Assembly (NCBI RefSeq): GCF_009914755.1
Contig: NC_060935.1
Reading direction: 5' to 3' (one strand)
Length of the DNA stretch: 64,000 nucleotides
From: the human T2T-CHM13v2.0 reference genome, Homo sapiens
Position 1 is the stretch's first letter. The number at the start of each line of letters is the position of its first letter. The notes below the pieces were generated by a model. That model was given only the letters and a program-made list of their open reading frames with translations. It made no database searches and was not told the origin of the DNA. This document shows positions 7,641 to 8,012 of the stretch, in pieces. Both the position numbers and the translations under genes were made by a program.

Positions 7641-8012
7641 GGACACATCTCAAACTGTGACCCATGAACCAGCAGGTATTGGCGTCACCTGGGATCCTGA
7701 CGTTAGTCTCTGTCAATCCTTCTCTTTAGTTCATCTATTCTACCCAAAGTGATCTCATCATCTGGTATGCTGTTAGCAGTTTCTTACCTGTATAGTATCT
7801 TCCAAATAACATGCCCCAAAATCCCAAAGTTTTACCCCTACTAATTACAGCAATGTCTCTTTTATTCTTCACCCCCTGACGCAGATATTGGCGTCACCCG
7901 AGAGCATGTTAGTAATGCAGAATCTCCCCTCCCCAGAACTACTAAATAGCACCTGAAATTTTAACAAGATCCCCATGTGATTCATGTGCACATCAAAGTT
8001 TGAGAAACACTA
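7641..8012 (+). mobile_element. MER5A/MER5A1 hAT DNA-transposon fossil, split by the 188-bp insertion
   Basis: tctcaaactgtg...cacctggga [insert] ...tgttagtaatgcagaatctc...ttttaacaagatcccc...aaagtttgagaaacact. Confidence 0.8.
7693..7880 (-). repeat. Inverted duplicate of CD3G intron 5 positions +1 to +188 (10026-10213)
   Basis: Reverse complement aligns without gaps to 10026-10213; 11 mismatches in 188 by hand alignment. Confidence 0.95.

What the first reader, a model, noticed from the sequence alone, without database searches (positions are those of the whole stretch)
7672..7903. The intron 2 arm looks like an excised intron's 5' end written back into its own gene
Seen: the insert splits a MER5A-type element, so it is the derived copy. 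It is flanked by a duplication of MER5A sequence: GCAGGTATTGGCGTCACC (7672-7689) and GCAGATATTGGCGTCACC (7881-7898), extendable to 20/23. Homology to the source stops exactly at intron 5 nucleotide +1, with no exon 5 bases copied. There is no poly-A, and the other junction has only a 2-nt GA overlap. Inference: a boundary exactly at a splice site is expected if the template was spliced-out or debranched intron RNA, reverse transcribed into a staggered break (RNA-templated repair or L1-RT-mediated insertion) about 2 kb from its origin. A DNA template switch has no reason to respect the splice site. Fixation needs a germline or early-embryo event at a T-cell-restricted gene, which is itself odd.
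Basis: partly seen in the sequence, partly recalled or inferred. Interest (0 to 1): 0.8.

Follow-up and report, generated by a model that had tools for sequence, protein, structure and literature searches.

The report
Local copy of intron DNA, CD3G
A 188-base stretch from the start of CD3G intron 5 was copied backwards into intron 2 about 2 kb away, most likely as an ordinary patch made during DNA break repair, and its exact stop at the splice site is probably a coincidence rather than proof of an RNA template.

Summary
Window 7693-7880 is an inverted, 94% identical copy of CD3G intron 5 nucleotides +1 to +188 (10026-10213). It splits an old MER5-like repeat and is flanked by a 23-nt target duplication (20 of 23 identical). 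It has no A-tail. The human assembly holds only these two copies.

The RNA reading (an excised intron, reverse transcribed) is not excluded, but nothing beyond the boundary supports it. [quoted passage not shown] 2009, PMC2671141). That study found 824 human cases, detected as unique inserts that split transposons. Donors lay within 5 kb, mean length was 162 bp, none of 39 inspected had a poly-A, 6 of 39 had target duplications, and microhomology was 2-9 nt.

Donors in that class cross exon/intron borders and are not enriched near genes. From the paper's counts I estimate 0.05-0.37 exact splice-site abutments genome-wide by chance, against 0.1-0.3% for this locus alone. The L1 nick motif and A-rich priming expected for tailless retroposition are absent.

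My odds: DNA-templated local capture about 0.7, intron-RNA template about 0.18. Primate alignments could not be run here.

The parts
7648..7694 (.). Left fragment of the split MER5-like interspersed repeat (acceptor site), ending in copy 1 of the target duplication
   Evidence: window 7648-7699 matches positions 45-95 of a profile built from 29 other genomic copies of the family (E 1.9e-07).
7672..7694 (.). Target duplication, copy 1 (23 nt). Its last two bases, GA, could equally belong to the insert.
   Evidence: 20 of 23 identical to 7881-7903; both copies map to the same profile positions, 69 to about 91.
7693..7880 (-). Inserted (acceptor) copy. Read on the minus strand, it is intron 5 nucleotides +1 to +188.
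   Evidence: pair I1: 188 nt, 94%. (alignment). (11 mismatches, no gaps). (only 2 copies in the assembly).
7881..7903 (.). Target duplication, copy 2 (23 nt)
7881..8032 (.). Right fragment of the split MER5-like repeat
   Evidence: matches profile positions 69-223 (E 6e-42); 441 candidate copies in the genome; sub-threshold mir-544 likeness at 7888-7981 on the minus strand.
9982..10025 (+). CD3G exon 5. None of it was copied.
   Evidence: Hub gene table; 14 of 50 columns upstream of +1 are identical, the chance level.
10026..10213 (+). Donor: the first 188 nt of CD3G intron 5, starting at the G of the GT donor site
   Evidence: Hub gene table for the exon 5 end at 10025.

Best explanation
This is a repair-mediated local duplication templated on DNA.

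**Proposed sequence of events (inferred, not shown)**
- Some 13-46 million years ago a break arose in the germline inside a MER5-like repeat in CD3G intron 2. It was either two nicks about 23 nt apart or a stalled nascent strand.
- The plus-strand 3' end (...CCTGGGA) paired through 2 nt (GA) with DNA 2.1 kb downstream on the same chromosome. An imperfect 5-of-7 match may have helped.
- It was extended for about 188 nt along the intron 5 plus strand and then let go.
- It was joined without microhomology to the other end. Fill-in of the 23-nt overlap gave the flanking duplication.

This could have occurred by synthesis-dependent strand annealing or by a replication template switch. The point where synthesis stopped happens to be the first base of intron 5. 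On this reading that is a coincidence and no RNA was involved.

The copy is probably neutral. As a side effect, it gives the CD3G pre-mRNA a long inverted repeat around exons 3-5.
For: **Fit to the described class** (Pace et al. 2009, PMC2671141; I read the abstract, Results parts 1-2, sections 11 and 14, and passages)

| Feature | This event | The class |
|---|---|---|
| Unique insert of at least 50 bp splitting a transposon | yes | defining criterion |
| Parental copies elsewhere | exactly one | exactly one |
| Donor distance | 2145 nt | 824 of 1,136 within 5 kb, 753 within 3 kb |
| Length | 188 bp | mean 162, maximum 619 |
| Poly-A | none | 0 of 39 inspected proximal cases |
| Microhomology | 2 nt | 2-9 nt |
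| Target duplication | 23 nt | 6 of 39, 4-21 nt |

**The class behaves as DNA-templated**
- Donors include 4 partial exon/intron pieces and 2 intron/exon/intron pieces.
- Gene density around these duplications equals that of random sites: 14.3 against 14.8 genes per 2 Mb.

**The coincidence is within reach of chance**
- About 0.05-0.15 exact junction abutments are expected among the 824, and 0.12-0.37 after extrapolation to acceptors outside transposons.

**No germline expression is needed**
- This matters for a T-cell gene.

**Error pattern**
- Mismatches are rich in transversions (7 against 4 transitions, P = 0.037).
- 4 of 11 lie within 12 nt of the ends (P = 0.04).
- This suits error-prone repair synthesis, but it would suit a reverse transcriptase as well.
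Against: - The donor boundary sits exactly at intron +1. For this locus alone the chance is 0.11-0.32%.
- Even after allowing for all known events of the class, the expected count is below 1.
- The junction at +1 has no microhomology, which fits run-off at the end of a template better than a random release.
- The 23-nt target duplication is just above the 4-21 nt range seen in the 68 junctions that paper inspected. Only 6 of its 39 proximal cases had one.
- I could not see that paper's Table S1, so I do not know whether this event is listed there.
- No outgroup sequence was available to show the empty site.
Confidence: 0.7

Rival explanations
1. RNA-templated patch. Excised or step-1-cleaved intron 5 RNA, still near its gene, served as template. 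The plus-strand 3' end at a staggered break in intron 2 primed on the RNA at about +186-188 through 2-3 nt. A reverse transcriptase (L1 ORF2p acting without its endonuclease, or a repair polymerase with reverse transcriptase activity) ran to the RNA's 5' end at +1. The cDNA end was then joined bluntly.
For: - The donor ends exactly at intron +1, and the joint there has no microhomology, as expected for run-off at a template end.
- The local chance of such a boundary under a DNA model is 0.11-0.32%.
- Flanking 23-nt duplication.
- Inserts derived from RNA that lack A-tails but carry target duplications do exist in large numbers. These are the tailless retropseudogenes: 2,402 perfect cases, primed internally and complete at the 5' end (PMC5322556, passages).
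- RNA-derived patches at double-strand breaks, about 3-fold fewer under reverse transcriptase inhibitors, are described (PMC5110952, parts 1-2).
Against: - The insert lies 2.1 kb from its source. A randomly placed RNA-derived insert would land within 5 kb with probability 3e-6.
- Published RNA-derived patches came from distant regions with no preference for any chromosome.
- The nick contexts are ...CCCGAGA/GCATGT on the plus strand and ...ACCTGC/TGGTTC on the minus strand. Neither resembles the L1 site TTTT/A or the tailless consensus, and the priming region is not A-rich.
- CD3G is T-cell restricted, so germline intron RNA should be scarce (established knowledge, not tested here).
- Four literature searches found no report of a genomic insert derived from a spliceosomal intron and bounded at +1.
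- The +188 end is not at a splice-related site. The nearest AG ends at +184 and has no pyrimidine tract.
Confidence: 0.18
2. Classical L1-driven retroposition of a tailless type. L1 endonuclease nicked the target, and ORF2p primed internally on intron RNA and copied to its 5' end.
For: Target duplication of 23 nt, no A-tail, and a copy complete at the 5' end if the RNA is the excised intron. The class is described in PMC5322556.
Against: - The target-site motif is not met on either strand.
- There is no A-rich complementarity at the priming point.
- The location next to the source is unexplained.
- Class 1 templated insertions need a poly-A and a TTTT/A site.
Confidence: 0.03
3. It is not an insertion at all. 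Either the two arms are members of an unrecognised repeat family, or the intron 5 arm is the derived one.
For: None found.
Against: - The assembly has only 2 copies.
- The intron 2 arm splits a repeat whose family carries the 23-mer once.
- The intron 5 arm has no flanking duplication and starts at a functional donor site.
- No Rfam family matches either arm.
Confidence: 0.02

Closest known systems
[quoted passage not shown]
   Same: - A unique insert of at least 50 bp interrupts a transposon.
- There is one parental copy, on the same chromosome and less than 5 kb away.
- Length is close to the class mean (188 against 162 bp).
- No poly-A.
- Short microhomology at one joint and a target duplication at the flanks.
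- Primate age.
- The paper also gives an example of an inverted insertion into another intron of the same gene (ACSBG2).
   Different: - One donor end coincides exactly with a 5' splice site. The main text I read does not analyse that feature.
- The target duplication is 23 nt, against 4-21 nt in their inspected sample.
- Whether this locus is in their Table S1 could not be checked.
Tailless retropseudogenes (Noll et al. 2015, Genome Biol Evol, PMC5322556)
   Same: - No A-tail.
- Flanking target duplication.
- The copy is complete at the 5' end of the supposed RNA and truncated at the 3' end, as from internal priming.
   Different: - Their target consensus is T-rich/A-rich, and the priming stretch is A-rich and complementary to the target. 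Here neither holds.
- Their sources are abundant small nuclear and cytoplasmic RNAs, and their copies are dispersed. Here the source is an intron of a T-cell gene and the copy sits 2 kb away.
Templated sequence insertions and polymorphisms, classes 1 and 2 (Onozawa and Aplan, PMC5110952)
   Same: - Insert size is in their range (73-414 bp experimentally, median 191).
- The donor stays intact.
- Intronic sequences are among their templates.
   Different: - Class 1 needs a target duplication plus poly-A plus TTTT/A. Class 2 has none of these. This event has the duplication only.
- Their templates are distant. This one is 2 kb away.
Short-range template-switch mutations (Loytynoja and colleagues, PMC9435742, PMC7954356)
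   Same: An inverted copy of nearby sequence written in during DNA synthesis, which creates a hairpin-forming inverted repeat.
   Different: Those events are found with a switch distance capped at 250 bp. The longest reported are 90-318 bp and most are far shorter. Here the template is 2.1 kb away and the copy is an insertion with a target duplication, not a replacement in place.
Spliceosomal intron transposition by reverse splicing (discussed in Ares et al. 2024, PMC11146597)
   Same: It would also move sequence bounded exactly by the 5' splice site.
   Different: That route moves a whole intron, in sense orientation, into a transcribed strand. Here only the first 188 of 732 nt were moved, in antisense orientation, with a target duplication.

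Membership tests
Repair-mediated proximal duplication (Pace et al. 2009) | An insert of at least 50 bp interrupts an annotated transposon, and the two fragments abut within +/-30 consensus positions | tested here: met
   the left fragment ends at profile position 91-95 and the right fragment starts at 69, an overlap of about 23-27. The insert is 188 bp. The criteria were read.
Repair-mediated proximal duplication (Pace et al. 2009) | The inserted sequence is found at exactly one other place in the genome | tested here: met
   2 candidates, both scored. They are the insert itself and the donor.
Repair-mediated proximal duplication (Pace et al. 2009) | The donor is on the same chromosome, more than 50 bp and less than 5 kb from the acceptor | tested here: met
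   2145 nt between the arms.
Repair-mediated proximal duplication (Pace et al. 2009) | No poly-A/T tract. The joints show microhomology, filler, deletion or a target duplication. | tested here: met
   no A/T run of 5 or more. GA overlap; 23-nt duplication, 20 of 23 identical.
Repair-mediated proximal duplication (Pace et al. 2009) | An empty orthologous site in an outgroup species | not testable with these tools
   No primate or other mammalian genome is held. The profile of family copies stands in for the empty site.
Tailless retropseudogene / L1 target-primed reverse transcription | A flanking target duplication and no A-tail | tested here: met
Tailless retropseudogene / L1 target-primed reverse transcription | An L1-type nick site (T-rich before the nick, A after it) | tested here: not met
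   the plus-strand context is TCACCCGAGA/GCATGT and the minus-strand context is CAATACCTGC/TGGTTC. The consensus was read.
Tailless retropseudogene / L1 target-primed reverse transcription | A-rich complementarity between the target and the RNA at the internal priming point | tested here: not met
   only GA is shared, and the donor around +180 to +190 is not A-rich.
Templated sequence insertion, class 1 | Target duplication plus poly-A 10-30 nt after a cryptic signal plus a TTTT/A site | tested here: not met
   Only the duplication is present.
Templated sequence insertion, class 2 | No target duplication, end-joining features only, and a template from a distant region | tested here: not met
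   A 23-nt duplication is present and the template is 2.1 kb away.
Insert derived from excised intron RNA (hypothetical class) | The donor is bounded by a splice site, with no exon bases | tested here: met
   homology starts at +1. There is a 1-in-16 chance that the true end is +4.
Insert derived from excised intron RNA (hypothetical class) | Independent sign of an RNA intermediate: a branch-site read-through, untemplated 5' bases, an editing pattern, or expression of the source in the germline | tested here: inconclusive
   - There are no extra bases at the joint.
- Changes from A in the donor to G in the insert account for 2 of 11 mismatches, which is no excess.
- Germline expression could not be tested here.

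The most novel reading that the evidence does not exclude
A spliceosomal intron RNA of CD3G, either the free 5' end created by the first splicing step or the excised and debranched intron, was held at its own locus. It was used in cis as a template to patch a staggered DNA break 2 kb upstream, giving a heritable copy bounded by the splice site. That would be a natural vertebrate example of intron-RNA-templated DNA repair. It would also imply that some of the roughly 800 or more known 'proximal duplications' are written from nascent RNA rather than from DNA.
Probability: 0.18. Interest if true: 0.75.

Novelty: new member of a known kind. Interest (0 to 1): 0.3.

Why it matters
**If ordinary (most likely).** It is one more primate-age local duplication made by break repair. 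Its only practical consequence is that the CD3G pre-mRNA carries a duplex of about 185 bp bracketing exons 3-5 and covering part of the exon 5 donor site. That duplex could be edited, could favour back-splicing, or could slow use of the donor site.

**If the RNA reading were right.** It would show that spliced-out intron RNA can be written back into the germline genome next to its source. That bears on RNA-templated repair in mammals and on how introns and local duplications arise.

**A cheap test is available.** The locus points to a decisive genome-wide test that has not, to my knowledge from the texts I read, been done. The test asks whether the donor ends of local duplications pile up at splice sites.

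Tried and rejected
- **Base rate from a random sample.** I drew 200 random 10-kb stretches to measure how common local unique duplications are. I did not ask again, because a sample small enough to pass would have had no power. I used the published counts instead.
- **Free sample.** A self-comparison of the 64-kb window plus 29 loci of about 3.1 kb each found only two low-copy pairs within one sequence at 60 nt or more and 80% identity or more. These are the two arms and a tandem duplication at 30003-30128. That is too little sequence for a rate.
- **Rfam over 7000-11000 at E up to 1.** 9 matches, none in either arm. 7 lie in the two Alu stretches (9272-9560, 10297-10581), 1 is next to the second (10572-10647), and 1 is the sub-threshold mir-544 likeness in the MER5-like repeat. 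So the donor is not a known small RNA, mirtron or snoRNA.
- **Cryptic short intron ending near +188.** Rejected. The nearest AG ends at +184, the copy runs to at least +186, and no pyrimidine tract precedes it.
- **Literature on inserts derived from lariats or excised introns**. Nothing matching was found. The hits concerned mRNA retrocopies inside introns, intron circles in yeast, and L1 chimeras.
- **CD3G circular RNA**. 1 unrelated paper.
- **Left repeat flank by plain blastn.** No hit at E 1e-3. It was recovered only with the family profile.

Full report
**What is there**

The repeat finder reports one long inverted pair in CD3G: 7693-7880 and 10026-10213, 188 nt, 94% complementary, 2145 nt apart. 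The pairwise alignment has no gaps and 11 mismatches.

By the hub's gene table, exon 5 ends at 10025, so the downstream arm is intron 5 nucleotides +1 to +188. The upstream arm lies in intron 2 (7404-8095).

Homology reaches +1. G and T at +1/+2 match, +3 does not, and +4 to +8 do. Upstream of +1, 14 of 50 aligned columns are identical, which is the chance level. No exon 5 base was copied. Because +3 is a mismatch, there is about a 1-in-16 chance that the real end is +4 with three filler bases.

**Which copy is derived**

The sequence to the right of the insert (7881-8030) belongs to an old, abundant interspersed repeat. The search found 441 candidates and scored 40. The 39 that are not the query itself are 74-83% identical to it.

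I built a profile from 29 of those copies. The window then matches it twice:
- 7648-7699 matches profile positions 45-95 (E 1.9e-07).
- 7881-8032 matches positions 69-223 (E 6e-42).

About 23 positions that occur once in the family therefore occur twice here, directly on either side of the insert. The two copies, 7672-7694 and 7881-7903, agree at 20 of 23 positions.

The whole assembly (3.12 Gb) holds only the two arms, so this is not a repeat family. Rfam finds nothing in either arm. There is no A or T run at either joint. The far joint shares GA.

The name MER5A is my recollection. It is backed only by a sub-threshold mir-544 hit and a listing of two papers that hold both mir-544 and MER5A.

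**Age and error pattern**

- Divergence between the arms is 5.9% (K2P 0.061, 95% interval of the raw value 3.0-10.2%).
- At the 2.2e-9 per year used by Pace et al., this gives about 28 My, with a range of 13-46 My.
- The mismatches are 4 transitions and 7 transversions (P = 0.037 for so few transitions if two thirds are expected; that fraction is recalled).
- 4 of 11 mismatches lie within 12 nt of the ends (P = 0.04).
- This hints that some differences were made during the copying itself, which would make the event younger. It does not tell an RNA template from a DNA template.

**What kind of event this is**

The literature search turned up a class that matches closely: Pace, Sen, Batzer and Feschotte 2009 (PMC2671141; I read the abstract, Results parts 1-2, sections 11 and 14, and passages). 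They searched the human genome for transposons interrupted by at least 50 bp of sequence that has exactly one other copy. Their findings:
- 1,136 cases in all. 824 had the donor within 5 kb and 753 within 3 kb.
- Proximal cases had mean length 162 bp, median 147 and maximum 619.
- None of 39 inspected proximal cases had a poly-A tract.
- Their joints showed microhomology (2-9 nt), filler, deletions, and in 6 of 39 a target duplication (range 4-21 nt over all inspected).
- Most date to primate evolution.
- One cited example is an inverted copy placed in another intron of the same gene.

The CD3G event meets every criterion I could test (see the membership table). Its repeat fragments overlap by about 23-27 consensus positions, inside their +/-30 window, so their pipeline should have caught it. 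I could not open their Table S1 to check.

**Does the splice-site boundary call for RNA?**

For this locus alone, the chance that a donor end abuts an exon/intron junction exactly is 0.11-0.32%, depending on the span and on whether both sides count. But the event was picked out because of the coincidence, so the fair question is how many such coincidences the whole class should contain.

In the paper's Table 2, donors include 4 partial exon/intron pieces and 2 intron/exon/intron pieces. That makes at least 8 junction crossings among 824 donors. A donor of 162 bp has 161 placements that cross a given junction and 1-2 that abut it. This gives 0.05-0.15 expected exact abutments among the 824, and 0.12-0.37 if extrapolated to acceptors outside transposons.

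A chance case somewhere in the genome therefore has a probability of roughly 5-31%. That is uncommon but not remarkable. The same table shows that the class as a whole does not respect splice sites. Section 11 shows no enrichment near genes (14.3 against 14.8 genes per 2 Mb). A class written from transcripts would be expected to show such enrichment.

**What the RNA reading must explain**

- *Location.* The copy lies 2.1 kb from its source. A randomly placed RNA-derived insert does that with probability 3e-6. The RNA-derived patches described at breaks came from distant regions with no preference for any chromosome (PMC5110952).
- *L1 signature.* The best RNA precedent, tailless retropseudogenes, has target duplications and no tail. 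It also has an L1-type nick site and A-rich complementarity at the internal priming point (PMC5322556, passages). Here the nick contexts are TCACCCGAGA/GCATGT and CAATACCTGC/TGGTTC, and the shared bases are just GA.
- *Insertion classes.* Class 1 templated insertions need poly-A and TTTT/A, and class 2 have no duplication. This event fits neither.
- *Expression.* CD3G is T-cell restricted (established knowledge), so a germline supply of its intron RNA is doubtful.

In favour of RNA there remain the exact boundary and the lack of microhomology at that joint, which is what run-off at a template end would give. A strong preference for acting in cis, with RNA held at its gene, would rescue the location argument. 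I found no report of it for spliceosomal introns in four searches. Ares et al. 2024 discuss intron transposition by reverse splicing, but that route moves whole introns in sense orientation.

**Weighing**

Both readings share the same geometry. A plus-strand 3' end ending in ...GGGA primes at about +186-188, synthesis runs to +1, the end is joined bluntly, and a 23-nt overlap is filled in. They differ only in the nature of the template.

I compared two rough expectations:
- A DNA capture abutting a splice site by chance: about 0.1-0.4 genome-wide.
- An intron-derived, non-L1 insert that lands next to its source: very small unless an unknown cis mechanism exists.

On that basis I put DNA-templated local capture at about 0.7, the intron-RNA template at about 0.18, L1-type tailless retroposition at about 0.03, and 'not an insertion' at about 0.02. 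Whether the DNA route was strand annealing at a staggered break or a replication template switch cannot be told from the sequence. Short-range template-switch surveys cap the switch distance at 250 bp, so they neither include nor exclude an event like this.

**Consequence**

In the pre-mRNA the two arms can form a duplex of about 185 bp, with a predicted energy of -318.8 kcal/mol. It covers intron 5 from +4 to +188 and brackets exons 3-5. Editing, back-splicing or hindrance of the exon 5 donor are possible effects, and none was tested. One search for CD3G circular RNA found nothing relevant.

**Limits**

- No primate genome was available, so neither the empty site nor the dating by presence and absence could be checked.
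- The supplementary list of the key paper could not be read.

Noticed in passing
window 7693-7880 with 10026-10213: In the CD3G pre-mRNA the two arms can pair into a duplex of about 185 bp (duplexfold -318.8 kcal/mol). It brackets exons 3-5 and covers intron 5 positions +4 to +188, that is, part of the exon 5 donor site. Possible effects are A-to-I editing, back-splicing of exons 3-5, or slower use of the donor.
   Followed up: partly
window 30003-30128: A tandem duplication of two units of about 63 nt, 86% alike, in the UBE4A intron between exons 29771-29923 and 30764-30923. It was the only other low-copy local duplication found in the window plus 29 loci.
   Followed up: no
window 7888-7981 (minus strand): The Rfam mir-544 model matches the MER5-like repeat fragment at 40.2 bits, below the gathering score of 66.5. 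This is a hairpin likeness derived from the repeat, not evidence of a microRNA gene.
   Followed up: partly
window 7693-7880 against 10026-10213: Differences between the arms are rich in transversions (7 of 11). They include an adjacent double change at donor +62/+63, and they cluster near the ends (4 of 11 within 12 nt). This suggests error-prone synthesis when the copy was made.
   Followed up: partly
window 9272-9560 and 10297-10581: Two Alu-like elements lie in CD3G introns 4 and 5 in the same orientation (direct repeat families D1-D5; SRP-like Rfam hits). The intron 5 Alu starts about 80 nt after the donor segment ends, so it was not part of what was copied.
   Followed up: no
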